A stretch of 64,000 nucleotides of DNA from Aplysia californica (lineage: Eukaryota): assembly GCF_000002075.1 (NCBI RefSeq), contig NW_004797360.1, forward strand, positions 67,790-131,789. The letters run 5' to 3'. Position 1 is the stretch's first letter; every line of letters starts with the position of its first letter. Below are positions 29,995-63,681 of this stretch, in pieces. The translations under genes and the position numbers were made by a program. Below the pieces are notes generated by a model that was not told the origin of the DNA, made no database searches, and was given only the letters and a program-made list of their open reading frames with translations.

Positions 29995-32900
29995 GGGCAT
30001 CAGCAGAGAAATGAAAAGGAAAAACATTAGATGATTTTTCATTCATATGTCATGATGACAGAGGAACAGTTCTGAATAAATAAAAATCAACCAGTAACAA
30101 ACTAAATAGGTAAATAAAAGAGTTAGTTATACGGTATCCTTAGAGACAGAATTGAGTTTCTTTTATTTGTCGGCAGCATCATGTTGGTATATGTATTTGT
30201 GGGTGGGACTCTATGATTGCAAGCCAGACGTCTTGATGACAGTCTAATATGGAATTCTATGTGTTTGTGTGTGTGTGCGTGTGTGTTTGTGTATGTGTGT
30301 CTGTGAGTGAGAGAGTGTTTTGTGCTTGCGTGCGTGAGTGCATGCGTGCGTGCGTGCGTGCGTGCATGCGTGTGAAAACGAAAGAAGGTTAAAGGGAAGA
30401 CAGANNNNNNNNNNNNNNNNNNNNNNNNNNNNNNNNNNNNNNNNNNNNNNNNNNNNNNNNNNNNNNNNNNNNNNNNNNNNNNNNNNNNNNNNNNNNNNNN
30501 NNNNNNNNNNNNNNNNNNNNNNNNNNNNNNNNNNNNNNNNNNNNNNNNNNNNNNNNNNNNNNNNNNNNNNNNNNNNNNNNNNNNNNNNNNNNNNNNNNNN
30601 NNNNNNNNNNNNNNNNNNNNNNNNNNNNNNNGGTAGAAACAGANNNNNNNNNNNNNNNNNNNNNNNNNNNNNNNNNNNNNNNNNNNNNNNNNNNNNNNNN
30701 NNNNNNNNNNNNNNNNNNNNNNNNNNNNNNNNNNNNNNNNNNNNNNNNNNNNNNNNNNNNNNNNNNNNNNNNCTAATAACTATCTGAACTTCAAATCCAG
30801 AAATGGAAGCAACTGAGTAGGATTAAAGTAGTACGGTATAAGTATAAGAACAAAGAAGAAAGGAGTTCAAACCCCGTCCTCAATTGTCGGTTAGTTCTCA
30901 TACCATGCCCCCAAGGGGCTAAATAGAAAAGTCTTGTTCTAATTAACCCCAAAATACCGCACTGAAATCGAAAGCATCACAAGCTAATAGCCTCGCTGTT
31001 ATAAAGTTCCTATAAATTAATAGTTAAGAAGTAGTTAACGCTTGCTTGTACTGTACCCTGTGACTTTTGCTATGAAGACGTTTTCTGTCAGCTTTCCTAT
31101 GCCATTTCCATTAGATTTGCAGGACCAGGTGTAGAATGGCTTGAACTGACATCTGCTGTTTCGGGAGACTTAATAAAGAAATAAAAGACGTACATCACTC
31201 ATAAAACTAATCAGATATCAAAGTAAGTTTCGTAATTATAATATACGTACTGACATATTGGTCCGTGGAAGCAAGAGGAAAACAATCAGTTTAAAAAGTC
31301 ATATTTTGAAAATTGATAATTGGATTCGTACTCTGGCAAAATATGTCTTTGTTATTCAGCATTGTAGCATTTCAAAATAGGAGATTATTATAACAAGCAG
31401 TTAAACTGTTTAATTTTGCTGGAGACACTGTCTTATTACAAGATGTTTCATTCGTCTAAAGCCGTTACTCTTACAAGAAGCAAAATGAGGCCAGGGTGAT
31501 TCGATGTGCTTTGTGAAACTCTGCAACATACTTGATGTTAATTTCTTTCCTATCGTAATTTTGAAATACTAGGCCTACAATGTTGAACAACGGAGAGACA
31601 TTCCAGTCAATAGCAAACAAGATTTGTCTTACAATGAGAGACACTAGGGAAAAAGATATGAGATCATCTAACAACCTTTGTCAAACGTTAATGTCAAACA
31701 TGCTTTGTTTGTTTGTTTTTATGTGTTGTTTTGTCGTTTTGTTTTGTTTTGCTTTGTTTTTTAATCCAAGCTCCCCACTTTCAGTAGTTATATGAGTCTC
31801 ATCCACATGAAGAAAAAGCAAACCTCTCCCACAAGAGGGTGATCCTGTTTACAATAGAAAACTATTGAAAGTCTAAAGCTCATATTGTATTCTCTTCCCC
31901 ACCTCATGAAAGCTCGTAAGTAGTTTTGCAAGCAGTGTGCGTGGTCCAATTATTGAGAGTTGCCCCCCCCTCCCCTCAAATCCCTTCCGAAAAAAGAAAG
32001 AAAGAAAGAAGTATAGTAAAAATAAAACATTTTCTAGTTTTAAAGCATGCAGCAAGAATTTGAGAATAGAACAATGTCTAACAAAACTTCTTTACCTGCA
32101 AGTTTTACGTCGCCTTATGTTTTAGCAAAAACGTCATGGAGAAAAGGCACAATGACCTTGAGCAACCAAATAATAGAAATGATATGTTATTCTACTTACA
32201 AACACAGAAGGAATGACGCTGCTGGAGACAGGGGCTGGTGTGAGCAATCTTTCAGCAATATAGCAAACCACTGAAGTTTGGACAGATAAACAGTTCCCAT
32301 ACTCGTGACTCGCAGTCTCTGGTCCAACAAACAGAGAATTCAGGAGATCTTTTTCACTGGGTCTGTGGTCTGGGCTCAACTCAAGAACCTTGCCCAATAC
32401 TCTATAGAAATAACCTTCCACTCCAGACGGGTATAAATTGGAGATCTGTTAATAGAGGCATGAAGATTATATGAATGCAAATGAGAAAGACATTTAGCTG
32501 AACTTCATCGTGTGAAAACTGTTCGAATTATTTGCTTTTGTAGGGGTTCAGGAAATATATTAACACATCATAGGTCTTTGAAAGTAAAATGAAAAATAAA
32601 ACAGACAGAAGCTAATAACAGAGAGGGAGATTAAAATAGGACCTAAAAGTGAGACGTTCCACCTACTCGCGTCAAAATTCTAAAGTGTCTTTCAGCCATG
32701 CTTGAGATAAATACCCTGTGAAGAAGCTAGTCGGAAATTCTCTAAAACTGTTACAAACAAAACTTCATCATTCAAAACTTTAAGTGGGAGGTACACTTAC
32801 TCAACTAGTCAGGTCTGCAAGATCAGGCTTGGGTGATTAGTCAGGCTCAGCAACATATACGTACCAAGGGAAATTCGGCGTGAATAAACGATATGGTCCC

Positions 32901-33131
32901 AAGAGCAAATAATACATAATAAATATGCTCGAAATGTATAGTATCCTTGTTCAAAATGAACATACAAAGCTATATGTGTTTTACTTTGTGAACGTAATAG
33001 CATAATATTATTATCAAGGACTTGTGAAGCCCCACCGACTCCATTACAATTATCAATGAGTGAGAGTGGTACTTATCTCATCCTCAATTGTGTATCGCAG
33101 CTTTATGATTGTCAAAGATACCACACACACA

Positions 33132-33181
<50 letters not shown>

Positions 33182-36100
33182 TTTCCCACTGCCCTAAATC
33201 AACTACCAAGTAGCATTCGATAAAAACCCAAGGGGAGGGGTTGATTTGGGGCAATCATTATACTTGCTATGCAGAGCCAAACTGGCATTTTCTCAGGTCA
33301 TTATGTTTATAGCTAGGTTTTTATCTATCATACCGCATCTTGTAAAAATCAGGTGGCATCATAAGTATTACCCAATTTAATAACCGCTTACAAATCAGCA
33401 AACTTACAGTGTCATTGAGAGAGCTCATGGTATCTTCCATCAGATTCTCGAACTCTGCGTGCTTTTCAGGGGACATGGTCATGGTTTGTTGGACCACGTG
33501 CTTCGCGTCAACGCAGTGTAAGGAAATGTTGCGTAGGAACACACTCAAACCGATGTCTCGTTCAGAATCCACATTGCCACAGAGCACCACGGACCCACTA
33601 GTCTTTACTAAACTCAGGAATTCAAAGAGCTCTGTCGACAAAATATTGATCAAGAAGTTTAGTGAGCACAAAAAAATCTTAGATTTAAACAGCTCTGTAT
33701 ACATCTTATGATACTCATAAGGTTCTCTTGACAGGACTTGATGGGGGTTCAGATAGACGCTAGTTCAGCTGAAGCAAAACACTGTTGATAAAAACGAGAT
33801 AACGGTTGCATTTGGACACATGAGCTATGGACCAAAGAAAGAGTACATAATGTATCAAGGGAGATCAGGCAATTTGATTTCTGTTTCAGCCCATAGTGTG
33901 CTGAAGCCTATTTCAATACTACAAAGTAAACTCCAATCTATTAAGCTTTCCTGGGACGTTAGGGGCACAATAATCACAATTTGACTTGTCCTGGGCTAAG
34001 AGTCTGTGTACCAAGCCATCTTACCAAATGCACTGCACGAGGTTGAATTTACACCTCTTCTCGACCAAGGGCTTGCTTCATAGTTATAATATGACTACAG
34101 GAAGTCTAAGAACACAGCATCGGGTGCGAGTTTGAAGAAACACACATATAATTTATCTACACACCGATATGTTTAAAGGGTTCTCCTTGGCTCAGGGTTT
34201 GCATGTCTTTCAGTCTCACAAAAGTTACACGTCTATTGACACTGGCGTCGATGGGCTTTGTGTTCAATATGATTACACAACTAGAAAAGAGCGATGTTCA
34301 AGAACCTGATGCTTATTGAAAGTGCGTACATTTGTCAAAAGTAGACCATTGAAGTGTAATGGTAGGAGAAAAGTAAGCCAAAATATATTTTAAAAGAAGA
34401 AATTTAACATGGAGGGAGGTTATCATGCCATAAAAGTAAAAGCCGAAATACAGAATGTTTCTTACCATGACGAGGCTGGAACATGATGACTACGTCACAT
34501 CCTTGCCCGTCTGTGAGCGGACGTACGTTATGGCTGCTGACAGAGTCCCGCAACATAATACATCGTGGCATTAAAGTCCGCAGTTCCTCAATAACAAAAG
34601 TTAGGTTTGACGCAGAAATCACAAACTTACAGCCCAGGTGGTGAGCTACCAGCAGCATGACACCAGAGTCCTTGTCTGTGCACCAAAAATAAAAAGAGAA
34701 AAAAAAAACTAGTGGGTTGGCTCAGTCAGGTTTTGCGTTATACACTAATTAATACACTACTGCTCATTTAAAAACCAGGGCAGTTTGGTCCAGCACAAAC
34801 AATGACTTAGTGAAAATACCCGAAATCGCATCTTCATAACTAACTATGATAAAAAAGAGTTGACATGTCATTAGGGGGAAGGGAGGTGTATATCGAAATC
34901 AATAATGATTTTGGGGGTACAGAAGACCGGACCCTTGTGCAGACTCAATGCATGTGTAGCGGTGTAACAAGAATGGTGGATACCTATTGATCCCAACGAA
35001 GAGGGCTTTTACCTTAAGACAAATCGTAATACTTATACTCGGTAGCGTTGTGTTGTCTTTGGCTCTAAGATATCCATAAACACGTCACTATCCTAAGAAG
35101 TAGCGAGTTGCAACAAGAACAAAGTAAACTGAAGAGAGAAATCGAAATTGTGCTTTTCTTTCTCGTATTGGTCTTGAATGTACATATTATAATATGAATA
35201 TAAGTTTCGGGGTGCATACTCTAGACTTTAAAAAATTGGTTTGTCTTAAGAACGTTAGCTAGATCTAGGAAACATTATAAAGCATATCAAGTTCCTAACA
35301 TTCTAAAATGCCTCCCCCCCCCCAAAAAAAAAAAAGAAAGAATTGAAAACTAACTTTCCCTTAGCGCTTTCTGGTCTTTAAAAAATAGTAAGCAATGCCA
35401 ATTAAACTTACATTAATATACATTAACTGTATGTTCATCTTATACAGGATCATATTTTGCACAACATTTCAAGATATGCTCATCAATCAGTTTTTCCTTT
35501 ACAAATAAAGACTTTAGTTTTAATAGTTTGTTGCGAAACTTACATAAAGGAGGTTGGACGAGCACCGTCTTTTTGCTGATATTTCTACTGTTAAGTCGGC
35601 CTAGATCCCTCAGGATGTGAAGAGCAAATATCACATTCAGGACATTCTCAAGGTGGGAGAGGCTGAAATGCTTGTTCACACGGAACCGGGAGTGGATAGA
35701 TGGCTTGCCTAGGGAGAGCGAAGATTTAAACAAGTTCGGCAAAAAAGTGTGGTAAGTGCAGCCTTACTCTAGAATTTGACATGATGCTTTTGAATAAAAT
35801 AGGGGAAATGTTAAAACCACATCCTAATACGAGCACTAACAATTCTAGAATTAACAGTAAGCCAAGAATGGCAGATGTCCTTGCTTTACGAACCCGTTGA
35901 AACAGTTCAGAACATTTAAGAGGTGGGGCAGTAAGACTGGAGTACATAATGTTTTGGAATTGTTTCACTTTTCATAAAAGCGAGATCTATATTTATAATT
36001 TGTTTATGTGTAACTAAAATAAGGACATCGCATTATGGGCCACCGAATCAAAGAGAATGGACCACTGAGGGGGATTCACAATTACTAGAAATGTTGCTGG

Positions 36101-48100: not shown

Positions 48101-51100
48101 CCTTGTATTATGCAACGTGCAGAAGTAAAAAATGTAACAAAAGTCCAGGAACACAACACGCAAGGAATCAAAAGGGGTAAACGTTTTTAAATTATGAATG
48201 GAGCAAGGGAACAATAGACCTAAGGATAAAGGGAATCAGTGCGTTTGAACTCCCCTCTTTAATCAATTAAAAACATTTATTAACACGCTGCAATAAAGTC
48301 TCGCGTCATTCATTGAAACACATCCACATCAATACACGAGTGTGAAATAATTTTTCAGCCTTTTTGGATACCAAAGCAAAGGGTGATTCCCATATAATCA
48401 AGCCTGTCGACTATTAATACATGAAACATACCAATTTGACACGATAGTCTCAAAGTCAAGCCACCAGTTTCTATAGGTGATGGTACTTTGATAGATTCCA
48501 GCATGGTTGGAATGCCATCTCTGTCTGGTTTCAACTTGATCACCTCCTGTAAAGATTAATATTTTTTGACAAGTTAGAGATAAACATTAAGCATGTGTTC
48601 CTTACCTTACTCAAAAATTATCTTCGATCAGAGGTTTAAGCCTGTCATGAGCCGTTTGGTTGGGTAAAAAGAAGCACATCGATACAGCAATGCAGTCATT
48701 TGGTGAAGGGTACTTCACATAAAAGTTTTCAACAATAATAATAAAAAAGGCACTGTCACAAAATAGCATTAAAGAACAAAAGAAAAGGTAACGCATTTTT
48801 ATTTTCATCTTCGCTTTTCCCCGTGAAAGTCTTAAAGGTAAATAGCTACTGTATAAGCAGAGCAGTGAAACCAACTTTTGAACACTGTTCCTATTTTCAT
48901 TGGAGAACTTAACTTTCAGGAACCACGCCACATTCACAGTGTGAAACGAATAAGAAAAAAACACAATAACATTCCGCATTCAAGTTTCTTCTTTTATAAA
49001 TAAGTTCACCTAGACAAACGCTGTCGTTCCTTCGATCCTTCGATTATGGTATAATCGAGCACGAGAAAGACAAGCAAATTAAATGCACTTAAAGTAGACC
49101 ATAGACATGATCTCAGATCGTGGATGTCGTGGCCGCCGCGTGTCACTATTTATTTTCTTTTTTTTTAAATGTCTGCACTGATGCTCACCATGGGCGCCCA
49201 AATGAAGAGTAAAATACCAGTCTAACTATAGTCAAGTGCAAGCGCAACCTCCATCAGTTAAGTGCGCGCACAACCTTCTTTCCTCGCCCTTCATTTTGTT
49301 CACAAAAAAGTCAAATGGAATGCTCCACAGTCAATCGGAATTACGTGGAAGTGCACTGTCTAGGACACTAAGTTTAAAGGTACAAGTCTTTGGATCTGAC
49401 TTTAGCTCGTCCTTCGCCTTAGAATCTCTCTTTAACGCACTTTCCTGTCTGGCGGACAATGTGACCTGTTATCAAAATGGCCTTTTTTAAGTCAAGAAGG
49501 TTTTCAGAATCAACGAAAACGAAAGTTGAAGACCCTATTCCCATTCACCTGATCGCAGAGCTCGAAAGTTTGGCGCACTGACGGGATATTCATCAAATCC
49601 TTACTAGGGCTCCATGGGGAAGAAATCATATCAGTGAAGACAACGCAAACTGGGGTGACTACCGGGTCCATGCTTGAGACATCAAAGTACTGCAATGAGC
49701 CTGAAAATTTGTGAAATGATGAAATGGTTTAAGTTACCGTCCCTATCATTAGGTTATTTAAGAAGCGGGACCCCCAAGTTTAACATCTGTCTCCGAAAGG
49801 ACAGAGCCAAAAGATTTGATTGATTGAGTAGGTGTTTTACGGCACTATCGACCCAATTCCGGTCATCTAAGTGCCAACAGGTTTCACCGTAACAAATCTA
49901 GGATCAGTCGCGTTTCAGCAAATGGAAAATTCGTGTAAAGTGTCTTTCCCAAGAACACAATGTTGGACTGAACTGAGGCTCGAACCCCTGAACCCACAAT
50001 CTCACGATTACCGATCTGGTAGCCTAGTCACTAGACGATTTTCGCCGATTGAAAATAATGTATCTACGTGTACATTTATTATCTGAAGCAGTACTAATAC
50101 TTCGCATTAAGTACGTGCAGCTTACTATCAGTAACAAACAACGCAGTTACAAACTTTCATTTATACTTCGCATTACTTATGTGTAAAAGGCGTTTACAAT
50201 CTTTCACTTTTATTTACTTTTTTCAGCAAAACGTCTCACGTTCCGCGTCGTCTGAATCAGAGGTGCCGATTTTTCAGCGAGCTAAGTTAAAAAGTACAGA
50301 TCAGTGCCTTATCCTAAACCATCAATAATTTACTTTTGAGGAACCAACTCTCTATGTTTAGTTGCTGCTTTTGCCTCTTTCTTTTTTTTTTCTTTCTATT
50401 CATTTTCCTTTCTATGTTTATAAATCCCGTAAAGGAGAAAATCGTTATATCGCCAGGTGATGAATACAGATCAGTTCGTCACCCGTACTCCTAATAGACT
50501 GATTGTGGACAACATTCCAGGAAACATTTTTTTTAGGTGTTCAATAACTCGGTGTGAACAATAGTATATTATTGACTCTAGGCTGTATAAGCACGCATGT
50601 CTAAAGACTGTTTCTCCAAAAGAAAATTGTCGTGGGGTTAGTTTTGATAACGTTCGAAGTCTACAGTTTTGATCCTGTTCTGATTTTCAAAAGTCCGGGT
50701 TAAAAAATCGCTGCAGAAGGCCTGAATCAGACGGTATGTTTTTCCTAGATTAACTGTTAAGGGGGGGAAATAAAGGAATTGCTTCACACAGTCAAGTTTC
50801 TTTTCTAATTTATAGAGACAAAAGAACTCATTAAAAGGCACTTAAAAGTAGCATCTCATATGAGAATATACAGTGCACAATCGGACATGTAATTTAAAAG
50901 AATGCATGGGCGGAGCCCATGACAAATGCCCGGGACCTGTGCCAAAAGGACAACGCAGCGAAAGAGGGAGACAGCATACAGGGCCAAAAAGGGCAAAAAC
51001 GCACAGAAATAATCCTCTTTGAATTCAAGCACCTGGCAAAGACATGTCACAATCTGGTGCAAAAGTTGAATAGTGAAAAACAACCCCTTGCATTATGTTT

Positions 51101-54100
51101 TAAAATCCTTTCAACAACAAAATACTTGAACTTTTGACTGAGTTACCTTTGTCAGAGTTGACAATGAAAAAACTCCTTTCCCACATAGCATTCCCTTTAC
51201 TGAGTTCAGAGTTGAGAAAGAACCTGTAAAAGCTTGGATCTCCCATGTGTCTGAGTATGTCTATTGCTGCGTCTTGGAAATTCGCATACGGCTGCAAGGT
51301 CAGTGGAATCAACATAGGACCTGGGACAAAGAAAAACAACATGTGTAGTCATACATAATCATAACTCAGGAAACTTTTTGAGGAAACAATCACAGTAAAA
51401 ACAAGAGACACAACAGAACAGCCCAGTAGAGATACAGGTTTTTAATAGGGGAACAGTTATTTTTAAGGCAGCGAATGTATTTGTTGTGTTTGTGTACTGT
51501 CTACGTTTAATGATCGTACAGCACTCAGAGCGTGTTTCTAACATAATAGAACGCTATAAAAATGCTATATAATATATTATTATCATTATCGTTTTTACTA
51601 TCATTATCATTCTTTTATTATTACTTACAATCCGCTATCTGGGTCACTGTGTCGGGACATCTGCGGAGGACGGCATGACCACCGAGGCCCCCAAAGCCAA
51701 ATGAGCTCACTGCCATGAGTCCATTAGGATCTAATGGAGTAAAGAGAAAAACATCGACATGAGTAACGGTCATTTAATGCATTGGGGAAAGAAATATACA
51801 AAGACAGATATTACTATAGCCGAGGGAAAGGGAAAAAATATGACCGTCCATTGATGTCCTCTTCTCCTCCCCCACCCCCTCTCTCCCTTAAACCGTCATC
51901 AAGGATCTGTGCATGAGAAATGCGGGCTGACAACAATACCTCCCCACTTCCCCCAGTCCAAAGCACATGTGACGCACTGGAGAAGCCGACATGTAATTGC
52001 GAGTGTTTTACGCTCTCATCGACGTCCTGTAGATCATTTGGGAGGCACGCTGCTTTAACCTTGCCTGTCAGAGCTCACCCAGGCTGAGTGATAAAACGTT
52101 CCCCAGACGAACGGAGACGTTCGATAAAAAGCTTCCTCCCCACATGAGAGAGGAGAGAGATCAGGATATGATTGTTTGTTTGAGTAAAGAGAAGCACATC
52201 AACACAATAATGGTCATTTAGTGATGGGGGAAAGCAAGACAAACAGACAGAAACAACAGAGGTAAAGTCAAGAAGCAGGACCTACCTGTGGCGCCCTCCA
52301 ACCACCAGCTCACAATCAGAGTCACGCACACTCTCATGGAGCCTCTTCCAACACTTANNNNNNNNNNNNNNNNNNNNNNNNNNNNNNNNNNNNNNNNNNN
52401 NNNNNNNNNNNNNNNNNNNNNNNNNNNNNNNNNNNNNNNNNNNNNNNNNNNNNNNNNNNNNNNNNNNNNNNNNNNNNNNNNNNNNNNNNNNNNNNNNNNN
52501 NNNNNNNNNNNNGTGAGTAAGTCCGCTGAAAAGAGTGAGTGAGAGAGAGTGAGAGAGAGAGTGAGAGAGAGAGAGGGAGATGGGGAGAGAGAGGGGGAGA
52601 AAGAGTATAAGTACAGAGGAGCACGTTTAAACTAGAACAGCCAGTATGTGCAAGTAAAACGCAAGACACGCAGAATCAAAATAGGAGGGAAAGCAAAGAA
52701 GTATAAATTACCAGTGATACTCTTTGATCACCTGCTCATAGGTCCAGCTTTTAAATAGTCATACATAAGATTAAGGATATTGATGTAATTGAGTGTATCC
52801 ACAAGAATCATTTTAGATTCGTGCGACTCTTCAAAAGACATAATACGGTTTCAACAAATTCAAACAACATAATCAAGGACAAAAAAAAGAATAATTACTT
52901 TCAGGGACAGGAAAGTTTGAAGTAGGTATCACAATTCTCCCACTCTTAAGTGCATTACTGGCAGGGTTGGGCACTTGAAAGTTGACGCAGTTGTAGATGA
53001 TCTTCGTTTGAAAAGATATGATGCATTTCACAATGCTGGCCAGACCTGAGGATAATGCGATTTTTATTTTTTTATTTTTTTTAACCCATGAGTCTACACT
53101 CAGGTTGAAATAAAAGACAACCAAAACTTATTAACAATCAAATAGATAAATCAAACAAATAAATCACAGAACACATGACAAAACTAACCATGGAAACTGT
53201 AAGGAAAAAACAAAGAATTTCTTGTCATCAGCTTGTGGTGTAATAAAACTGTCGTGTAAGAATACGACTTAAGCACATTAAAAAAAATAGTTTGCATTGC
53301 AACCTGGCGCAATTGCATGTCAATCGTAATTTATAATGTGTTGCACAGTCAGATTCCATAAGCCTTCCAGTGATTTGTGTTAACAGCAACTACAACAATA
53401 GCATTTGGAATCTAACATGAGGTGATCAGTATCATCTGCAAAGTTAACTGGTAAGAACTTTTATTGAAACTCTTGACCTTTCTAAAAATGTAATAAGCCC
53501 CAAAAGAAGAAAAAAAGGGGCATGGGATGTACAGTGGCATATTATACCAGTCCTTACCAATGAGACTTCGATAATCACTTATTATAGTAGAGTTTTGGGT
53601 CAAACTGCTAAAATTGAATGAGTCAATTTTATATCTCACAGCAATGTACTAAGCATAATAATACTTTAAAACCGTGATATAGCGAATGGGTACTGGCCAC
53701 TTCTAGGCATTGTACGTCTATTCTTAGTCCGGTGAAGTAGGAGAAACACACGTCAATAAATGGAATTTGTTTGTTTTAGAAGAGGTTTTGTGGCGCTCGC
53801 AACTGCAAACGGTCATATGAGCGCCAAGGGGAGGATGTCAACAGAGAAGTCCTTACAGGGAATCAGACTTACTCTGCTCACCTCTCTAGCTGCAACAGCA
53901 CAAAGACTGCTTCGACTATAAAGGCACCCCGGAAATAGCGGGTCACAAGAGTGTGACAAACATACAAACGAAGTAGAGGAAAATGACGATAGTAAGGATT
54001 AGGAAAGAAAAGGCAGCAGTTCTCTGTTGTAGTTAAGGCACAGGTATGAGCATGACATTGTTGGATCAGCCCATTTACAATTCTACTATGCATTAGCACG

Positions 54101-57100
54101 AGAAATGCCCCCCCCCCCCCTTTTTCGGGAACGGCTTAAAGACACTTCAGTCTGTGGCACCGCCCCGGGAGGAGGGGGGGGGGGTTAATTAAATGGAAAA
54201 GGAGCTAACCATAAAATAATTCATGATCTGCAGGAATATGGAAAAGAAGAACACAGTCAGTTTGAGTTCCCTCATGCTCCGACTAAAAAGTTAACGAAAA
54301 CCTTTCCTGGAAAATACCGTCTTTTATAAACAGAGACCACCAGGCAACAACAACTGAGAGTTATCTGCTGTTCTTCTGACCTGAGGTAGCCTCTGTGTGC
54401 CCAATGTTTCCTTTCACAGAGCTCACAATGAGAGGGTCTCTTCTCCTTGAGCATATTACGGCATCAATTGCTTTCAATTCAGCTTCATCGTCTTTCTGTG
54501 GGGAAAGTGATAGACTCAGCAAACACTAGAGCACATCATGAGGTAATGTCAAATTTTAGTTTAGTTTTAGTAGAGGTTTTACGGCGTTCGCGACTGCATA
54601 AGGTCATATGAGCGCCAGAACATTAGAGGTGTTACAAGAGAGTAACAAACATAAAAAAGAAAAAGGGGAGATAAGGACGATAGATGTTTCATAGGAAAGA
54701 AGAAGCAAACCACACCAGAGCACCCGCCAACCATCCACGTGATAGCAACTTTGGAACAGGAGAAAGCACCATAACAAACAGAGAAATAACATGGGTGTAG
54801 GGGTGGAAGCACATGCAGAAGTGGTCAATGTTAGCTTAAATAGATATTATACATTGAGTGTATGTATATATATAACAACAGCAAATCCCAGCGAGTCTGC
54901 ATAATACACCCACGCTGTGTCACTCACAAGTAACAGATAAAAACAATTTTTAGAAACAGAAAAGAAGGAGATAAAATAAAACAATTAGCCTTGTGTTTCA
55001 AAATGTAAAGTGAAGGATGACTTGTAGAAATTCAATTATCTCATCATCATCCTAGAGCACTGATCGGTTGTTGTTTTGTTTATTTTAAATTAGTTTTAGT
55101 AAGAGGTTTGCGGAACTTGCAACACAATAAGGTCATACAAGTGCCGAAGATTAGAGGTGTTACAGGAGTGTAACATACATAAAAAGGGAGGAGGAGAGAG
55201 AAGGGCGATAGATGTTTGATAGGAAAGAATGAGCAAACCACACCAGAACACCCGCCAACCAACCACGAGCATTGATCTGATTGTCAATGTTGTCATTTCA
55301 TATAGGAGTCCGTTATAATTTTAATGATGGTATAACCACAGGTTGTAATTTGCTAGTTATTTCTAAAGGGTGTATTCTCATAATGTTTGCCTCCAGTCTA
55401 TAATAATAAATTATACCAAGTGAAAATCAACGAAGGGTTGTCTATGGCCAAACTGGGGCCGTTTTCATAAGGACAAACAAGAGAATCAAAATACCGTTTT
55501 ATTGATCCCCGCATGGCAATTGTGGTTACAACGATCAACACAATGCATTTATAATGATACGCAATGTTATATGACACCATTACATGTGATGTAAAGAGCA
55601 TGTCATAATTATGTGGTCGCTGCTGTACAGTGCCCTGCATTTGTTTTTGTATTTTTTAGCTAAGGTCATCGTGTTCTGCTCTCAAGGACACATTTCATTG
55701 ACCATTCACCAAACTGTCGTGTAACTGATTTTGCTAGATTTTTTTTATTAACCTGAGCCATTGACCCATCATCCTGTGATTTAAAGTCTCGAACCAAAAG
55801 AAAAAAGAAAGTATTGTCACCAAAATGCCATATTTTTTAACATACCAAATACAGTATAATAAAGTGGTATCAGCAAGGCAACACTTTATGCGTAGAATAA
55901 ACTTAGGAAGTGGCCTAAAGCAAGAATACAAACTACGTTGTCTCCTCTTTGACATTATCGCTTACTTGGAAATCAAACTGACATGTAATTCAAATTTGTA
56001 TTTTCGCAGCGACCTGTGTTTTTTGGCATTGTGTAGAAGGACGATAATACCTTCTGGGAAGACTTTTTGTCTCCTTTTTCTTTCTTAGTTCAGAAGCTAC
56101 AAACTCGAATGCCAAACTGTTTTTAAACATTTTGTTTTTCGAAACAACGGTATTTTGTTAACGACATCTAAAGGAAATCATCACTCTGTGTGATGTCAGT
56201 CACCTAGTGGTTATAGGATGTTGGGCTCGCAATTGAAAGATCAGGGGTTCGAACCCCCGTCAAGGGCTAGACGTCGTGTCCTTGGGAAAGGCACTTTACA
56301 CAAATTTCCATCACTTCAACTTGGGGGTAACGGGGACTCGGCTATAGATGGTAAAAGATCTTTATCAGGTTGGGGTTTTTTCGTCTTTAAGTGCTTTATC
56401 AGCCACTTGTATACTTTCCGGAAGCTGAAAATGTATCTCAATATTCCAGGTTTAGCCGGGGTACTAAAATCAGATTGTAAAGAACAAAGAGCATGTTGCT
56501 GAGCAGGGAGATGCGCTATGGAAATGCTATTCATTACTTGTCATTTTTTTCTCACCCCTCCCTCTCCTTTCCATCAAAAAGAATCCCCCCCCCCAAAAAA
56601 AAACCCCAAAAAAACCCAAAACAAATAATGTTAAAACACCAAACTAACATAAAAGCATACTAATTTTAACTCTACTGATTGGATAATTGAGCGATTCTTG
56701 CATAGTGTCAGTCTTCAAATAATGAGGTACGGGCCTGTCAAATGCTTTGTTATGAACCGAATTAGTTTTCAGCATACATTATTCTGATTCCCATAAGTTA
56801 CCCGGTTGCATGCACCATGCGCTTCGAAGCAAACGATATCTTTGACGTCGATATTGAACTCAGTGTAGACATCATTCAAGAGTCGTGACTGGAACTCGTA
56901 ACTTGGACGGACGATTCCTGAATGAAATTTTAAAAAAGCAGCTTTAGATAGTTTCGTTTCCGTAAGAGTTTTACGGCACATGCAACACAATTAGAGTATA
57001 TTATAAGTGCCGGAGATCAGAGCTGTAATTACAGAGTAGTATACTAAGAGTAGAAGAAGAAGAGCAGAAGGACGGCAGATGTTTGATAGAAAAAAGGAGC

Positions 57101-58724
57101 AAACCACGTCAGAGCACACGCCAACAACCTACAAAACCAGTTTTAAAACGTTCAAATTAGCAAATTACTAACATGCCCAAAAGTGTATGCCATGGATCAA
57201 TTTATTATAAAAATAAGACTTCTTTACTAATCTGCTGTTTATCTAGATTTTTTTTGTACCATGCACAGTGGCAACCATGTTAGTAACATTATCCTCAATG
57301 GATTTATTCATTTATTAATATAATCAGATGAAATTAGTTAGTTTTAGTTTTAGTTTTAGTAGAGGTTTTGCGGGGCTCGCAACTGTTTAAGGTCATAAGA
57401 GCGCCAGAAGATTAAAGGTGTTACAAGAGAGTAACAAACATAAAAAAGAAGGGGAAATAAGGACGATAGGTGTTTGATGGAAAAGAAGAAGCAAACCACA
57501 CCAAAGCACCCGCCAACCACGCACACAGAGGAAATTAAGTTTGTCCTTTTTTTTAGGACTTATGAGACTTGTCAAAGAGCAACACATTTTGTCACACATC
57601 GTTTGCTGCATTGCTAGGAATGCCTTGTAATTGTAGAAGCTCTACGCCCACATCGACACGATTCATTTGCTCGTTTAGTGCGCGGGCTGCTTAGAACTTT
57701 CCCATGAGGACCAACCTAGGCTGGGAGGTATACAGCGTCCCATCAGAAAGGTGGTAACACCCTGTAAAAATTCTGCCCACACCATAGATGCCTTTAAACA
57801 TGTCTTGAAATAAGGTGAGAGATCAAAAACAAGGATGTCTGGACTGTATATTACCTTTCAAAGCGCGATGCAAAATTATTTGCTTTGCTTTTTATGCAAA
57901 TGTCACGAGTTCGATTCCAGAGTGAGATAGGTTTTCTACTGCCTGGTGGGATATATATATATATATATATACATCTATGAGGAATGTCATACGGCTCACC
58001 TTTTTCTCTTGATCCCCCACACTGTAGGCCGAAACCAACTACATCACAGTAGCCCCTTGCAGGCAAAACACAATCACTTCTGTGGATGGTTAACAACCTG
58101 TAGTTTTATGTCAGTTAAGAAAAGCGGTCTATCAAGAACCTGGAATACAGATTACGCCTGCTGCAAACCAGATGAACACTAATGTAATAACGGAGCCGGC
58201 AGCCAAGCAGAAAACCATTTATTTACTACAAGCCTGACCAAGGCATGAAGCACTTAGAAAGGAATAATATTGGCAAAAATCCTAGGCAGAGAGACCCAGA
58301 GCTCTACATGAGCCTGGAGGACTTGCTGCGAACAGCACACTTTGCACTTCAGAACGAGATGCCCTGTAAAGATAAAGCAGAAGAAGCCAGATAACACACA
58401 TAGCTTAAGTATTGATCGAACATAAATATAACTATTACTGTACTTACGGTTTTAGTAAAAGAGCAACAATCCCATCAGAACGGACGTAACCGTTTGCCCT
58501 TTGGTCAAAAGGAGTACTCTGACCATCTGGACTCAGCAGCCTCGCCCTGGCAAGTCGCAAAGATACAACTGGATCCAGAATTAAGTTGGCACCTGCGAAT
58601 AAGAATCCACGGCATAGGTAACACAACGAAAAAAAAAGGAATTATTTTACATTGGCCTATGAACAAAGAATTTTTTTTTTCAAAACTTCACAAAGCCCCA
58701 TCATAAAAGCAAGACATCCCCCCT

Positions 58725-58782
<58 letters not shown>

Positions 58783-61700
58783 ACACACACACGCACAATA
58801 CAATTTGAGTGATACACTGGAAGAAGCTACGTGATAAGTCCCACATGCATGTTACTATTAATCAAGACGTCTTCTGTCGATTTCCTGCAGCTTTAACATT
58901 GCCCTCCCAAATGGGTTTTTTATGCTTGAAAAAAAAAAGGGGGGGGTATTCCGATGTGGTTAGTATTTTGGAAAGAAAAGTACACCTAATGATAAATTAC
59001 AATCTATATCAATATCTGTAATATTGAGAGCTTTACCTGCCACAATGGCCAGATCACATCTGTTGGTCCTAATGTCCAACAAAGCAGCATGGAGAGCAGC
59101 GAAGGATGAGGCACAGCCCCCGTCTATGTTCTGCACGGGGCCTTTCAGGTCGAATTTTTTTGCAACCCTGGAGCTCAGCTCACTGCCTGTGTTGACTGAT
59201 ATAATAAAAGAGAATTTTACAAATTAAAGTAATATTTTCTCCTCTTTTTTTAATTATAGGGGCATGTGTGTTCTACGCAACTTAAATAATTTGAGGGGCG
59301 AGCTGTTGCGACTCTGCCTGCCAATCCGGGCTGAGAGGGGTACATTATCTCTGCATTAAGACGAAGATACTTTGTTAAAAAAAAAAACAACCTCCCCATT
59401 AAGAAATTTAATTAAACTCGCCTCCTCTGTGCTGAACATTACGTTATTTCAACAACGGCTGAAGACACGCTGTTTTGGGGGGACTTAAATAACTTCTTCA
59501 CAAATACAAATTTTTCAATTCATGTTTTCTTAACTGATATTTTAAAGGTCAGTCGAAAGTTTGCCTACTATGAAATACACGAAACCATGTTTCTGATTTG
59601 TATGTTGTGGTTGGAAATGAGGCTGAATATTGCCTGTGGTCAGCCGCTGTAGCCACAGACATGTTATGTGTCCGGTACGCCATTAAATAAAGAGTTTGTT
59701 ACACTACAAACCTCGGTAAAACAATTTGTGAACACCGCCATTTTCTACGGGTTTGTTTGGTTTTTTTGCTTTGATGCTTTTGGTATTTGTTCTTCTAAAA
59801 ATTGTATTTGATTTTTTTCTATCTATTTCGAGAAGGGTGAGTGGTAGCCTGATCTTTAAAAAAGAAAACAACAAGCAGTTTGATTGTGCAACACTTTGCT
59901 TGGCTCCTGTGTGAAAAGTGACCCCCCATCCCCCTTCTGAAAAAAACAGCCCCACTTTCCTTTTGAAAAAGGTCGCTAAAACCGAAAAATGGAACTTACC
60001 TTACATTTGAACTTCAATAGTCCACCCTCTATTGCTAGACAAGGGTTTACATTCTGAGCTTTACAGTAGCAAGGATATAGGGGGGGAAACAGCCTGTTAA
60101 GTCACACGGGTCAAAACTCCGAACTAGTTTTGTTTTACCCTGCTCTTAATACGAACGACCCCCCATTAAAAAAACCGAAAACGAGCGAGTGTGTGGGTGT
60201 GTCGTCTTACTGCTTAGGTTCAGCCTTGTGCGACTCAGTCACGGAGTTTCTCATCCAGTAATAATACGTAATCCTATTCATTTAGACTACACGTAGTCTG
60301 ACAACTTAATGTATTATTGTAAGAGAGACGACCACGGTGCGCTGTACTTCTGTCGCCCATCTATATTACTGACGTTTACACTTTTTGCACTGCTGAGTTG
60401 GGAGTTGTTGGCGAAGATCTGAATAATAAAACCACAATTCGTTAATCATACTTTCCTACAGCATGTATCTAGCGGGGTTCCGGGTGTAGAAATTTTGAAT
60501 TGTGGTCTATCTTTGCACTTCCTCACCACTCAGAAACATTCTCGGCGTCCCAGGGAGCATACAGTGCAAGCTGCAGATTGCACGCACTCATTCACTAACA
60601 AATTGACAAGATATTTCGCTCTCTATTGCCGGACATCCATTTCACTTGGGTGAAGTTAGGGAAAACTCTCATAAAGTACCTTTATCAAGGACAAGACGTC
60701 GGGTCCCTGAAGGGATTCGAACCCACAACCTTACAATAATTGCGAGTTCAAAAGCTTACCCACTAGACCAACGACGCCATACTTACAACAAACTATTATA
60801 ATGGTTGCTAGGTAAAGAATATCATGGTACATGGCACTTGCACATAATAAAAACATCGCAAAGACAGTAAGTATGAAGTGAAGACGCGATACTTACAGTA
60901 TTCAGAAGGACTTGAGAAGGGTCCTGTTTTTATATAGTCGGTGTCACATTGGGTCATGCCCAAGTAAAATCCCGTTTTTCGATGAGAGACTTCGGCAAAT
61001 GTCAGTCCAGAGTCCATGATGCACTCAGCTACAACCTCCAGAAGCGGCCCGAGCATGTGATTGCTGCAGAAAGCCTGCAATATTGTTAGAAGCCAGGTTA
61101 CTTAAATAATTCATCAGCTTCACAATTATATACAGGCATAGCATGAGAAGCTCCTCTACTTTTCGTTACCTTCGCCAGAGACTTAATGCTAAAACGTGAC
61201 CAATGGAAACTCAAGACCGGTAATTTGAACTACGACAAAAAATGTACAACTTAGCCACCAAGTAGAGACAGTGCATTGAAAAAAATTTGAAGGACAATGG
61301 CTTAAGTACATTTTTTTAAACTTTTAACTTTGAATATTATACCTCAATGCTTATCAAACAAAGCACGGCGGGCGACTGAAGGGTGCTTTGATGTGATCTG
61401 CTTATTCTCTCCTCTCAAACATCTATCCTTGTCTTTTTGGTCGTCACTCTCTTGTGACACCTCTGATCATTGGCATCTATATGACATTGTGTTGCCATTG
61501 CCGTAAAACTCTTGTTTAAACTAAAACAAAACAAAGCATCTTTTGGAAAGAATCTTAGCACTGTTGTCTGTTTCAAGTAATGGTTGATGCCGGGTTTTTA
61601 AAAAAAGAGGACCTATTTAGAAAGCACTAACTCCGTCATCATTCGACCGATTTCGTAGAAACTTTGAAGAAATGAAATTCAACCGGGGATATATTACATT

Positions 61701-63681
61701 TGTCAAAATGAAGCAAAGCAACCATCATGTTCGAAAAAAACCAAGTTTTGAAAATTTCCACCAAAACTGAGTCAAACGCAAAACCTTGCAACTTTTTATA
61801 AATCTACCATACCGATCATTGCATTAAAGAACAAATGTATGCAAAATATTGTATTGCCAAATAAACCCAGGGACCTGACGGCTACTTATAGTTCCAGGGA
61901 TTGACCAATTCTCTCCATGCAAGCTCCGCTATATACCACTGGAAATTTTGAATATCACCGTGGCGTGTTTTGAGGTCGATTCTTTGGACATCCTGTTGAA
62001 CATTGAATTTCAACTGTTCAATCGTTTGTGGTTTGTCTCCGTAGACTGTCAAAAAAGCACCAAAGGTTATAATTTAAAGAGCTCAAGTTTCGGGGAATGT
62101 GGTAACCATTCATTCGAAAACTTTCGGCCCATAAAGGGTTCCACAAACCTTTCTAATAACCACATGAAGGCCACTCTAGACATTTGGGGTGTTGCCCCAT
62201 CCGACTGGAACCAGGCCTCTGCAGCATAACACCTTCTCCTCCAGAAAACCTCTTCAAAACTTTCTCAGCACGGTGAGATATCTATCTGATGTGACTGTTG
62301 TGGATTTATCATCCCCTTTGTTGAATGTTATTTGTTCGAAGTTTTGTTAAAATTAATGTACTATTGACTGAGTTATTGCCCTTTAAGTGGGTCCTAATTT
62401 TTAGACATCCTGTATGAGAGACAGCTGCCATTTTATGGCTGGCGCCATTAGAACTAGAGGGCGGAAAATTATGTCCCGCAATAGGTTTTTTGTTGTATCA
62501 TCTTGATCAACAAACAGGATTTTGTATCTTTTCAGAAACACTTCTTATGATTCTAAAATTTTACTGAAACGTGTTCCTTAATGGAAATTACAACTGTGCC
62601 CCGTTTCTCAAAGTGCGTAAATACTTGACCTCCAACGGAGAAACGTTGAAAAATTGACAGTCCATCTCTCCAACCGAATCCAACCGCCCACATTTGTGCC
62701 TCATTCCAAACACCCCAGGAGGCCATCGAGGATCTGCAAGGTTACAATGACCAGCTTTCAGAGTATAGGACAACTCCTGAAATTGAAAAAAAGAAAACGA
62801 GGGACACTTACTTGGACTACTGCCCTTTTCTTTTTTTTTTTCTTTTTTGCTGCCCATGAAAATAAACACTCATACTTTTCAAAGCACACATTTAAAAAAT
62901 TCAGACTGCATGAGTGCTAAACAATACATTTTTATAGCCCTTCATTGATACTAATACAGAGGTGTCAACTTCGTTTCACGAAGTAGTGGAATTCACTTTT
63001 ACTTTTGATATGAAAAGGGCAACGTACATAATGTTACGTCAATACTTTTAATAAGAAAGTGGCTATTCTCACCCGCCCGGAAGTTCTCGCAAGATCAACT
63101 CCTCCCCTCTTCTCTCTCTCTCTGTCTCATTCTGAATACTGTCTATCGGTGTGGACGATCAAATTGACCAAAACAAAGTTAAAAAATGATGTTAAAACAC
63201 AAAAGTAAATTAATTTGGTTGTCTACAAAGATGCTACGGCTATTTAACTTTTCGAATCGAGCCGAACTACGCGGGTCGCCATTTTGTTTTGCCCGGAAAT
63301 TCTCGCGCTACTCCTCTCTCTCTCTCTCTCTCTCTCTCCACTGCCCACAGACAAAATTGTACGCTTTTAGTAGGCTACAGTTGTAATGGAACGTTTGTTC
63401 ACGGCACAGAATTCTACAATTTTTCTGTTATCACAGTGTAGAATTCTGTGGTTTAGGGTGAACGCAAAATTTGGTGAACGCGCACCGGGTGAGAATAGCC
63501 ACAAGACTCGCCTGCACTATTCTCACTCCGGGTGAGAATAGAGGTGGCCTTTAATAAGATCATTTAAAAACCTCATACTTACATCAATGTCGTTTGCCTG
63601 TGGTAGCCGGAAACCCAAGCCCGAAATGCAAGCAAGGCTTTTGAGCGGGCTATGCGGCGTGCTTGCCGCGTCTGCACTCAT
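29840..63681 (-). CDS. Animal FAS-like type I PKS/FAS paralog (KS - pseudoAT - pseudoDH - pseudoMT/pseudoKR remnants plus insertion - pseudoER - ACP-like); at least 28 coding exons, about 7.7 kb CDS, about 2,600 aa; 3' terminal exon uncertain
   Basis: 28 consecutive phase-consistent GT-AG exons from 63681 to 31057 with no stop codon. Domain order and motifs are collinear with animal FAS (CISGLGFRLP, FDLKGP..IDGGCASS, EAHG, VKGNIGHTE, SFGFGG, AVAYADRCLS, FLTTLGRIHVAG, TDGQGCDVVI, GLSVFLRNISLH). Confidence 0.9.
31057..31168 (-). CDS. FAS-like exon 28 (putative)
   Basis: SRNSRCQFKPFYTWSCKSNGNGIGKLTENVFIAKVT; open in phase 1; no homology support. Confidence 0.45.
31475..31520 (-). CDS. FAS-like exon 27 (putative)
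   Basis: tgcag|SFTKHIESPWPHFAS|GTAAGA; phases 0 to 1; no homology support. Confidence 0.5.
32200..32445 (-). CDS. FAS-like exon 26 (ACP-like, lacks the DSL serine)
   Basis: Open, phase 0 to 0, GTAAGT donor; RVLGKVLEL...KDLLNSLFVGPETASHE aligns weakly to AVAHILGI...SSLADLGLDSLMSVE. Confidence 0.7.
33122..33178. repeat. (CA)n(CT)n compound microsatellite
   Basis: Seen directly. Confidence 0.95.
33408..33631 (-). CDS. FAS-like exon 25 (ER)
   Basis: LSLVKTSGSVVLCG...IGLSVFLRNISLHCVD, similar to CLATHGRFLEIG...LGMAIFLKNVTFHGV. Confidence 0.88.
34466..34675 (-). CDS. FAS-like exon 24 (ER nucleotide-binding subdomain, degenerate)
   Basis: SGVMLLVAHHLGCKFVISA...VRPLTDGQGCDVVI, similar to AIALSLGCRVFTTV...HTGGKGVDLVL. 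Confidence 0.87.
35544..35708 (-). CDS. FAS-like exon 23 (ER)
   Basis: VNKHFSLSHLENVLNVIFALHILRDLGRL...KKTVLVQPPL, similar to [36 protein letters not shown]. Confidence 0.82.
36519..39941 (-). CDS. FAS-like exon 22, giant 3,423-nt exon (end of DH, pseudo-MT/pseudo-KR remnants, long S/T/N-rich insertion, ER start)
   Basis: Within the 1166-aa ORF; acceptor cattttcag, perfect GTGAGT donor; phase 1 to 1; begins LMTCGGLII, similar to VTVAGGVHI. Confidence 0.88.
40439..40629 (-). CDS. FAS-like exon 21 (DH second hot-dog, shortened)
   Basis: GLLKDMLSFLMNGYHELWPLRLIWDPSRHSKL, similar to FMDTMLQ...LPTRVTAIHIDPATHRQKL. Confidence 0.78.
40828..40894 (-). CDS. FAS-like exon 20 (DH)
   Basis: GSLSLLGSLEVYSENPVP, similar to GNLVVSGKVYQWDDP; phases 1 to 2. 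Confidence 0.72.
41445..41583 (-). CDS. FAS-like exon 19 (DH hot-dog fold)
   Basis: VLAFDNVRLAHVTSID...VLCKVSAASKKFVVER, similar to VVFEDVVLHQATIL...VRLLEASRAFEVSE. Confidence 0.82.
41902..42023 (-). CDS. FAS-like exon 18 (DH start, no catalytic His motif)
   Basis: ERLPKTMCKRIFPPEYAAVSDPPGVELVHILLSSAAEFFEK|GTAGGC. Confidence 0.75.
43757..44268 (-). CDS. FAS-like exon 17 (AT end and post-AT linker, with insertion)
   Basis: 512-nt open exon; CSPEFLATLLSGP and GFLTTLGRIHVAG, similar to FLAGIGRLHLSG. Confidence 0.85.
44688..44802 (-). CDS. FAS-like exon 16 (AT)
   Basis: GHTYEVLKFCVPIYCHNQDRLKDNLKTRFQKIIPRPAIW|GTAAGT, similar to FAS AFHS...LKKVIREPKPRSARW. Confidence 0.8.
45700..45870 (+). mobile_element. 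L2/CR1-type retroelement 3' tail with a 24-bp tandem duplication and (ATT)n end
   Basis: (CGTGGGAGTGGGCGCTATAGAAGT)x2 at 45727-45774 followed by ATT repeats. Confidence 0.55.
46123..46314 (-). CDS. FAS-like exon 15 (AT small subdomain)
   Basis: GQALIHL...YFIAVLHGKKNTVIQKLKEKG; phase 1 to 1. Confidence 0.72.
47664..47840 (-). CDS. FAS-like exon 14 (AT active-site region; GHSxG replaced by GEGVG)
   Basis: ALIELLKAMGALDKVALLRGEGVGGLAVAYADRCLSLAQCIRVA; the donor lies next to an N gap, so the 3' edge is uncertain. Confidence 0.87.
48432..48546 (-). CDS. FAS-like exon 13 (AT)
   Basis: EVIKLKP...LTLRLSCQI|GTATGT; phases 0 to 1. Confidence 0.78.
49549..49700 (-). CDS. FAS-like exon 12 (AT start, degenerate)
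   Basis: TPVCVVFTDMISSPWSPSKDLMNIPSVRQTFELCDQ, similar to [35 protein letters not shown]. Confidence 0.82.
51147..51320 (-). CDS. FAS-like exon 11 (KS-AT linker)
   Basis: Open and phase 1 to 1; PMLIPLTLQP...RSFFIVNSDK. Confidence 0.75.
51629..51730 (-). CDS. FAS-like exon 10 (KS C-terminus)
   Basis: GLMAVSSFGFGGLGGHAVLRR|GTAAGT. Confidence 0.92.
52899..53045 (-). CDS. FAS-like exon 9 (KS)
   Basis: GLASIVKCIISFQTKIIYNCVNFQVPNPASNALKSGRIVIPT. Confidence 0.9.
53780..54170 (-). mobile_element. Dispersed repeat family B, copy 2
   Basis: Highly similar to 22680-23055. Confidence 0.85.
54381..54495 (-). CDS. FAS-like exon 8 (KS second His)
   Basis: KDDEAELKAIDAVICSRRRDPLIVSSVKGNIGHTEATSG. Confidence 0.93.
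54555..54735 (-). mobile_element. Dispersed repeat family A (about 180 bp, SINE-like, (CTAAA)n tail); further copies near 2330-2490, 18680-18840, 24375-24460, 26395-26575, 28165-28335, 55090-55265, 56950-57130, 57340-57520, 61380-61530
   Basis: Shared core GAGGTTTTACGGCGCTCGCAACTGCATAAGGTCATATGAGCGCCAGAAGATTAGAGGTGTTACAAGAG...GCAAACCACACCAGAGCACCCGCCAACCA seen about 10 times. Confidence 0.85.
56195..56540 (+). mobile_element. tRNA-derived SINE family D with CORE-like central domain; further copies near 29320-29620(-), 49920-50035(-), 60540-60780(-)
   Basis: CTAGTGGTT...GGTTCGAACCC head, then GTGTCCTTGGGAAAGGCACTTTACAC...; L2-like GCGCTAT tail. Confidence 0.7.
56802..56917 (-). CDS. FAS-like exon 7 (KS first His, EAHG)
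   Basis: GIVRPSYEFQSRLLNDVYTEFNIDVKDIVCFEAHGACNR. Confidence 0.9.
58000..58079 (-). CDS. FAS-like exon 6 (KS)
   Basis: SDCVLPARGYCDVVGFGLQCGGSREK|GTGAGC; phases 2 to 1. Confidence 0.8.
58448..58592 (-). CDS. FAS-like exon 5 (KS)
   Basis: GANLILDP...[31 protein letters not shown]. Confidence 0.93.
58726..58791. repeat. (CA)n microsatellite
   Basis: Seen directly. Confidence 0.95.
59037..59195 (-). CDS. FAS-like exon 4 (KS active-site Cys, codon 59113-59115)
   Basis: LSSRVAKKFDLKGPVQNIDGGCASSFAALHAALLDIRTNRCDLAIVAG. Confidence 0.93.
60897..61074 (-). CDS. FAS-like exon 3 (KS)
   Basis: AFCSNHMLGPLLEVVAECIMDSGL...KTGFYLG|GTAAGT. Confidence 0.88.
62630..62776 (-). CDS. FAS-like exon 2 (KS)
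   Basis: ELSYTLKAG...PRWPPGVFGMRHKCGRLDSVGEMDCQFFNVSPLE, similar to FAS [30 protein letters not shown]. Confidence 0.88.
63059..63502. mobile_element. MITE-like element in the first coding intron of the FAS-like gene
   Basis: 17-bp perfect TIR GTGGCTATTCTCACCCG / CGGGTGAGAATAGCCAC; internal 14-bp inverted repeat at 63405-63418 / 63437-63450. Confidence 0.65.
63583..63681 (-). CDS. FAS-like gene, first coding exon (KS start)
   Basis: MSADAASTPHSPLKSLACISGLGFRLPQANDID|GTAAGT; the ATG is 2 nt after a ctgcag acceptor. Confidence 0.85.

What the first reader, a model, noticed from the sequence alone, without database searches (positions are those of the whole stretch)
51629..63681. KS with an intact triad but a remodelled active-site environment
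Canonical motifs are changed around the conserved triad: DTACSSS to DGGCASS, EAHGTGT to EAHGACN, MDPQxRLLLE to SNHMLGPLLE, GDPxE to DDEAE, and SFGFGGSNVH to SFGFGGLGGH. The HGTGT threonines line the pantetheine/malonyl channel in KS domains, so their loss suggests altered chemistry (for example non-decarboxylative acyl transfer, or a thiolase-like or CoA-substrate reaction) or a different substrate.
Basis: partly seen in the sequence, partly recalled or inferred. Interest (0 to 1): 0.7.

Follow-up and report, generated by a model that had tools for sequence, protein, structure and literature searches.

The report
Hollowed-out sea-hare polyketide synthase
This is the front end of a sea-hare gene from an already catalogued but untested mollusc family of fatty-acid-synthase look-alikes; it keeps its three catalytic residues but has lost substrate-guiding residues and working partner domains, so it likely cannot build chains alone and may serve as a partner or scaffold.

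Summary
All five motif changes are real. They lie in separate exons of a 28-exon minus-strand gene (63681-31097, 2547 aa, all introns GT-AG), Aplysia californica LOC101860881. Near-identical transcript KS sequences are in the supplement of Lin et al. 2024 among mo-clade 4 animal FAS-like PKSs (AFPKs), whose biochemistry is unknown. Cys169, His303, His341, Lys336 and Phe408 are kept. Both pantetheine-anchoring threonines and the gate Asp/Asn pair (FabF D265/N404) are gone. The KS keeps 35 of 57 conserved columns (background median 55). AT, DH and ER are relics; no KR, ACP or TE was found. In 7 orthologues, the T-to-G and S-to-A changes around Cys, loss of the DPQxR Arg and loss of the gate Asn are shared (7 of 7). 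The threonine loss is not: 5 of 7 have HGTST, and the other 2 have lost Cys and His. EAHGACN also occurs in Cys-less mo-clade 2 KSs. So the threonine loss reads better as decay than as new chemistry. Best reading (0.5): a selected pseudo-synthase with a crippled KS. Rival (0.25): a gate-locked KS working in trans.

The parts
63583..63681 (-). Exon 1, start codon and KS first strand (aa 1-33)
   Evidence: start matches orthologue N-termini
62630..62776 (-). Exon 2, KS (aa 34-82)
60897..61074 (-). Exon 3, KS with SNHMLGPLLE (for MDPQxRLLLE)
59037..59195 (-). Exon 4, KS with DGGCASS; catalytic Cys169 at 59115-59113
   Evidence: (PF00109, E 2.5e-12)
58448..58592 (-). Exon 5, KS
   Evidence: (PF00109, E 1.2e-9)
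58000..58079 (-). Exon 6, KS loop 2: Gly264 where the gate Asp (FabF D265) normally sits
   Evidence: present in transcript contigs
56802..56917 (-). Exon 7, KS with EAHGACN: His303 kept, Ala305 and Asn307 replace the Thr pair
54381..54495 (-). Exon 8, KS with DDEAE and KGNIGH (Lys336, His341)
52899..53045 (-). Exon 9, KS
51629..51730 (-). Exon 10, KS end with SFGFGGLGGH: Phe408 kept, Gly412 replaces the gate Asn (FabF N404)
43805..51320 (-). Exons 11-17: linker and relic acyltransferase; GEGVG replaces GHSxG (Gly598 at 47778); active-site Arg and His also lost
   Evidence: (AT profile E 5e-15)
40439..42582 (-). Exons 18-22: relic dehydratase, catalytic His motif absent
   Evidence: (weak, E 0.014 on its own)
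36519..39941 (-). Exon 23, 3423 nt open exon in the pseudo-methyltransferase position; no family match
   Evidence: pN/pS about 0.14
32200..35708 (-). Exons 24-27: relic enoylreductase, nucleotide-binding glycine motif absent
   Evidence: PF00107, E 0.093; E 9.5e-7
31057..31168 (-). Exon 28, stop at 31099-31097; the transcript goes on past 31057 into about 450 nt not located
   Evidence: (run X2 contig 9)

Best explanation
This is the ketosynthase of an Aplysia mo-clade 4 FAS-like protein that keeps Cys-His-His but has lost the pantetheine-anchoring threonines and the gate Asp/Asn pair, sits on relic AT, DH and ER domains with no KR or ACP detected, and therefore likely works not as a chain-building synthase but as a crippled, KS-dimerising partner or scaffold. 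Shown: gene structure, motif states, relic domains, splicing in transcript-like contigs, purifying selection in the large exon, placement with clade 4. Inferred: poor condensation and transacylation (by analogy with FabF and type II PKS mutants); a Cys that may still take an acyl group; action through the KS-KS interface with itself or with a working FAS/AFPK subunit, much as chain-length factors do. The Aplysia lineage appears to have drifted further from catalysis than most orthologues. Membership of mo-clade 4 is far surer (about 0.95) than the mechanism.
For: No cycle is possible in cis: AT Ser, Arg and His lost in Aplysia and Ser lost in 2 of 2 orthologues whose AT was seen; no KR, ACP or TE match in the protein or the window. 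Mutant data: FabF N404A 2-3% and D265A about 5% of wild-type condensation; D265 mutants 200-300-fold lower transacylation (bioRxiv 2021.02.13.431092); Thr-to-Ala mutants impair IgaPKS and AntPKS (PMC9006962). Aplysia lacks all four residues. KS keeps 35 of 57 conserved columns; 1 of 918 background domains is as low. Two of 7 orthologues have lost Cys and the first His, and one of these looks by eye like the closest relative of the Aplysia sequence. EAHGACN followed by DD also stands in 2 mo-clade 2 KSs with Cys replaced by Asp and Lys by Asn; 4 of the 5 background KSs lacking both Thr/Ser and aligned normally at this motif also lack His. The gene is still selected: 8 synonymous and 4 non-synonymous differences over 601 and 2201 sites.
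Against: Cys, both His, Lys and Phe are kept in Aplysia and in 5 of 7 orthologues although Aplysia and Physella KSs are only 53% identical and the AT serine was lost: this suggests selection on KS chemistry, at least ancestrally. The published clade-4 representative keeps a thioesterase with Ser, Asp and His motifs. Aromatic type II KSs are active without the D265-N404 pair. In the EcPKS2 structure no direct hydrogen bonds to pantetheine were seen, so the threonines may matter less in AFPKs. 245 of 918 background KSs have Gly at the gate-Asp column. No partner was shown and no activity was measured.
Confidence: 0.5

Rival explanations
1. Gate-locked condensing enzyme acting in trans: the KS still does decarboxylative condensation on short primers, holding the chain like an aromatic type II KS, with malonyl supplied by another synthase's ACP (heterodimer) or by malonyl-CoA, giving unreduced short polyketides that a TE releases in species that keep one.
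For: Full catalytic set kept in Aplysia and 5 of 7 orthologues. Gate Asn lost in 7 of 7, the pattern of chain-retaining polyketone KSs. All reducing domains dead or absent. TE motifs intact in the clade-4 representative. FabF accepts malonyl-CoA. Physella KS model keeps the type I KS fold, TM 0.95.
Against: Polyketone KSs keep Thr/Ser at both pantetheine positions; Aplysia has neither. No TE found in Aplysia. Two of 7 orthologues have no Cys. No partner or product known.
Confidence: 0.25
2. One reading: a non-decarboxylative acyltransferase or thiolase-like enzyme using CoA thioesters.
For: Nucleophilic Cys kept; no ACP or working AT, so any activity would need free CoA esters or a partner; shared changes next to the Cys (xGxCASS, 7 of 7 orthologues) reshape the nucleophile elbow. 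ACP-independent KSs with unusual chemistry exist (NonJ/NonK, recalled, not checked).
Against: Non-elongating KSs usually lose the first His and thiolases need a second Cys in the last loop (both recalled); Aplysia keeps both His and has no Cys in residues 405-414. Gate mutants hit transacylation hardest. The Thr loss is not shared by orthologues. Best Pfam match of the Cys exon is KS (2.5e-12), thiolase 0.011.
Confidence: 0.12
3. Pseudogene or mis-assembly: random decay, or exons joined wrongly.
For: The RefSeq model starts at a different exon and omits the Cys half of the KS. A raw polyA run, X17, showed almost no reads on the exons laid.
Against: 2547-codon open frame over 28 GT-AG exons; three published contigs hold the whole spliced KS; X2 contigs join exons across introns; pN/pS about 0.14 and threefold fewer differences in exons than introns, p 0.012; orthologues in other species.
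Confidence: 0.03

Closest known systems
mo-clade 4 AFPK (Lin et al. 2024, PMC10764717)
   Same: Mollusc, FAS-like KS, unrecognisable middle; near-identical contigs stand in the clade-4 block of their alignment; six orthologues are labelled clade4; their clade-4 architecture example is an orthologue with the same relic AT and large middle part.
   Different: No TE found in Aplysia. 25 of the 34 rows in the block are a more canonical subgroup (Cys and both Thr in 25 of 25, gate Asn in 23 of 25). The paper's main text never discusses active-site residues ('active site' 0 hits).
Animal type I FAS and EcPKS1/EcPKS2 (mo-clade 1 AFPK)
   Same: KS-LD-AT-DH-(psiMT)-ER order, intron-rich gene, Cys-His-His; best animal PDB matches of the Physella orthologue are FAS (1.6e-79) and EcPKS2 (3e-65).
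   Different: 35-38% KS identity; AT, DH, ER dead; KR and ACP not found; long separate branch.
mo-clade 2 AFPK with Cys-less KS (Siphonaria example)
   Same: EAHGACN followed by DD at the same place.
   Different: Cys to Asp and Lys to Asn; keeps DPQxR, an AT with GHSLGE, KR and ACP; separate clade, so the shared motif is likely convergent (no tree was built to test this).
Aromatic (polyketone) type II KS and chain-length factor
   Same: Lack of the D265-N404 gate pair; idea of a KS-fold partner subunit.
   Different: Type II standalone bacterial proteins; keep Thr/Ser pantetheine contacts; CLF lacks the Cys (recalled), which Aplysia keeps.

Membership tests
mo-clade 4 AFPK | Molluscan KS-containing type I protein | tested here: met
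   100% match to Aplysia californica LOC101860881
mo-clade 4 AFPK | KS groups with mo-clade 4 | tested here: met
   Three near-identical contigs lie in the block opened by the Clade4 label; six orthologues labelled clade4. The two of these three contigs searched for are not in the labelled table, and my own tree held no other clade-4 rows except Physella
mo-clade 4 AFPK | FAS-HMM score above PKS-HMM score | tested here: met
   Authors' scores for a near-identical contig: 326.6 FAS, 222.8 PKS; not recomputed
mo-clade 4 AFPK | Intron-rich gene with a large exon in the psiMT region (AFPK/FAS pattern) | tested here: met
   28 exons, one of 3423 nt
mo-clade 4 AFPK | KS-AT-TE recognisable (descriptive, not the clade's definition) | tested here: inconclusive
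   KS and relic AT found; no TE in the protein or window, but about 450 nt of transcript beyond 31057 were not located and the assembly has gaps
Working type I FAS / iterative PKS | KS Cys-His-His | tested here: met
   C169, H303, H341
Working type I FAS / iterative PKS | AT with GHSxG serine | tested here: not met
   GEGVG
Working type I FAS / iterative PKS | ACP with phosphopantetheine serine; KR | tested here: not met
   No profile match, no GxDS motif on the minus strand of the gene
Non-elongating KS0 / KSQ / CLF | First His (KS0) or Cys (KSQ, CLF) replaced (definition recalled) | tested here: not met
   Both kept in Aplysia; both lost in 2 of 7 orthologues
Thiolase | Second catalytic Cys in the C-terminal loop (recalled) | tested here: not met
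   Loop reads SFGFGGLGGH, no Cys; Pfam favours KS
Any KS | Measured condensation or transacylation | not testable with these tools
   Needs protein assays

The most novel reading that the evidence does not exclude
A split animal synthase: this ACP-less, AT-dead protein supplies a gate-locked ketosynthase (and in some species a thioesterase) to a heterodimer whose other subunit supplies AT and ACP, for instance the Cys-less mo-clade 2 AFPKs that share the EAHGACN motif; or it condenses CoA esters directly as an ACP-independent type I KS.
Probability: 0.12. Interest if true: 0.8.

Novelty: new variant of a known kind. Interest (0 to 1): 0.45.

Why it matters
mo-clade 4 is reported from all surveyed mollusc classes and has no known chemistry. 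This locus shows that the clade holds a subgroup with a closed-gate KS, dead AT and no ACP, sliding from full triad to no triad across species. That gives a graded natural series for testing what the pantetheine threonines and the gate pair do in a type I KS, and whether animals use pseudo-synthases as partners of FAS-like enzymes. It also corrects the RefSeq model, which omits the catalytic Cys. If the protein proves inert, it is a conserved pseudoenzyme of modest interest.

Tried and rejected
No whole genome is held. A homologue search with the Cys exon alone found nothing (13 candidates). The KS-AT search returned 1294 proteins; none of the 120 listed besides the query's own was a mollusc record by name. 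The representative search listed 150 of 36065 hits; only P0122 (Physella acuta) was recognised as an orthologue, the rest being long multi-KS proteins that crowd the list. AlphaFold job on the Physella orthologue never finished (ticket, last asked), so no superposition of my own was made. Atlas search of part of the large exon gave only hits under 0.9. No RNA holder was listed on record. TE, ACP and KR exons were sought by profile, tblastn and motif in the whole window and not found. A frame of the last exon that stays open was rejected: it needs a phase-1 intron and the intron is phase 0. The open stretch at 61885-62073 was rejected as a KS exon (no match). Species of the orthologue contigs could not be read from the supplements searched. 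No complex prediction was run: KS dimers would pass by likeness. Searches of earlier scan findings returned nothing. Paper searches for the gene ids (65), pseudoenzyme with Aplysia (77), HGTGT with threonine (47), non-elongating KS with HGTGT (90) and FAS gate residues (86) returned nothing; searches listed no paper on clade-4 function.

Full report
Observation. The window is animal DNA with few long ORFs. Ten exons from 63681 to 51629, all bounded by AG and GT, give one open KS frame. The gene runs on for 18 more exons to a stop at 31097: 28 exons, 2547 residues. The large exon matches Aplysia californica LOC101860881 at 100%. That RefSeq protein (P0001, 2284 aa) starts at another exon and lacks the KS half with the catalytic Cys. 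Three transcript contigs in the supplement of Lin et al. 2024 carry the whole spliced KS with 2-5 differences in the columns shown. Contigs of run X2 (RNA by guess) skip the introns between 44266 and 39329 and between 37698 and 32200; a raw polyA run, X17, showed almost nothing on the exons.

How unusual. It keeps 35 of 57 columns that are at least 90% conserved; the background median is 55 and 1 of 918 is as low; two of the 22 misses are alignment gaps.

What the lost residues do. In FabF, Thr305 and Thr307 anchor pantetheine, and Ala mutants impair two type II PKSs (PMC9006962; passages and one section read). Asp265 and Asn404 hold the gate open; N404A gives 2-3% and D265A about 5% of condensation, and D265 mutants cut transacylation 200-300-fold (bioRxiv 2021.02.13.431092, passages; PMC7138838, passages). 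Chain-retaining aromatic type II KSs lack that pair and are active. In the AFPK EcPKS2 no direct hydrogen bonds to pantetheine were seen (PMC11831141, passages and one section). These are analogies; none was tested on this protein.

Rest of the protein. FAS-derived profiles find a relic AT (GEGVG for GHSxG, Arg and His lost), a faint DH without its His, the back half of an ER without the glycine motif, and no KR, ACP or TE in P0001 or in six frames of the window. The X2 contig continues about 450 nt past 31057 to a place outside the stretch laid; with the stop 40 nt upstream this is most likely 3' UTR, but a TE in another isoform is not excluded. The gene is under selection: one X1 contig differs at 8 synonymous and 4 non-synonymous places over 601 and 2201 sites (pN/pS about 0.14) and at 11 of 923 intron versus 12 of 2973 exon bases (p 0.012) (one haplotype pair, large exon only, not the KS).

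Family. Lin et al. (PMC10764717; main text parts 1-4 of 7, passages, and parts or searches of supplementary files 1-7, 9-12 and 16 seen; files 8, 13-15, 17, 18 not seen) define mo-clade 4 AFPKs as present in all surveyed mollusc classes, with only KS-AT-TE predictable and unknown biochemistry. The three matching contigs lie in the 34-row block opened by the Clade4 label, six orthologues are labelled clade4, and their clade-4 architecture example is an orthologue. My tree of 33 KSs joins Aplysia and Physella (100/100) on a long branch apart from FAS, fungal and bacterial rows; it holds no other clade-4 rows and is unrooted. The Atlas model of the Physella KS matches type I KS models at TM 0.93-0.95.

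Orthologue test, read by eye. Seven orthologues (six block rows plus Physella P0122; two rows near-identical to P0122 not counted again). Shared with Aplysia: T-to-G two before the Cys position and S-to-A after it, 7 of 7; DPQxR Arg lost, 7 of 7; gate Asn lost, 7 of 7; GDPxE Pro lost, 5 of 5 visible. Gate Asp kept in 2 of 7. Not shared: HGACN (5 have HGTST), DGGC, and G-to-D in DDEAE. Two of 7 have lost Cys and the first His. The other 25 rows of the block keep Cys and both Thr (25 of 25) and the gate Asn (23 of 25), though all have altered DPQ. The AT Ser is lost in both orthologues whose AT was seen; the published example also shows no KR or ACP by eye but has a TE with Ser, Asp and His motifs. 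In that alignment file EAHGAC occurs 5 times: the three matching contigs and two mo-clade 2 KSs whose Cys is Asp and whose Lys is Asn.

Mechanism. The protein cannot load, carry or reduce a chain by itself (shown by missing parts, subject to the unplaced 3' end). The subgroup shares a closed-gate KS with a reshaped nucleophile elbow; the triad is kept in most members and lost in some; Aplysia is in between, with the triad kept and the pantetheine anchors gone. I read this as a selected pseudo-synthase whose KS is crippled and whose role is likely structural or regulatory through KS dimerisation (0.5). The kept triad across 53% identical KSs and the TE of an orthologue keep alive a trans-acting, chain-retaining condensing role (0.25). 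Pseudogene is unlikely (0.03).

Novelty. The family and this KS sequence are in print as data. The active-site states, the two subgroups, the dead AT with no ACP and the motif shared with mo-clade 2 were not found in the paper's main text or in my searches, which cover open-licence papers only; the peer-review and reporting PDFs gave no hits for the motifs, and unseen supplements could bear on this. Verdict: new variant of a known, uncharacterised kind; interest 0.45.

Noticed in passing
window 21742-22245 (+): Single-exon 167-aa ORF with a signal-peptide-like hydrophobic stretch and many cysteines; no Pfam match.
   Followed up: partly
window 8758-10023 (+): Two exons with weak MOSC-domain matches, likely the 3' end of a MOSC/mARC-type gene.
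   Followed up: partly
window 57261-57279 (-): Short ATG-bearing piece with a GT donor that the RefSeq model uses as first exon; if real it would give an isoform without the catalytic Cys.
   Followed up: no
window 61885-62073 (-): Open stretch in intron 2 that resembles the end of a Tc1/mariner transposase (recalled resemblance; no Pfam match).
   Followed up: no
window 46550-46810 and 49750-49930: Very high-copy repeats (summed depth 1e5 and more); a second dispersed repeat of about 170 nt recurs near 53780, 54570, 55100, 56960, 57360, 28200 and 26430.
   Followed up: no
window 29843-30003 (-): Open stretch with an AG before it and AATAAA at 29738; candidate for the unplaced 3' exon of the transcript.
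   Followed up: partly
Lin et al. 2024 supplementary files 5-7, mo-clade 2: Two mo-clade 2 AFPKs have a KS with Cys replaced by Asp yet an intact AT serine and an ACP; the paper's main text was not seen to mention this.
   Followed up: partly
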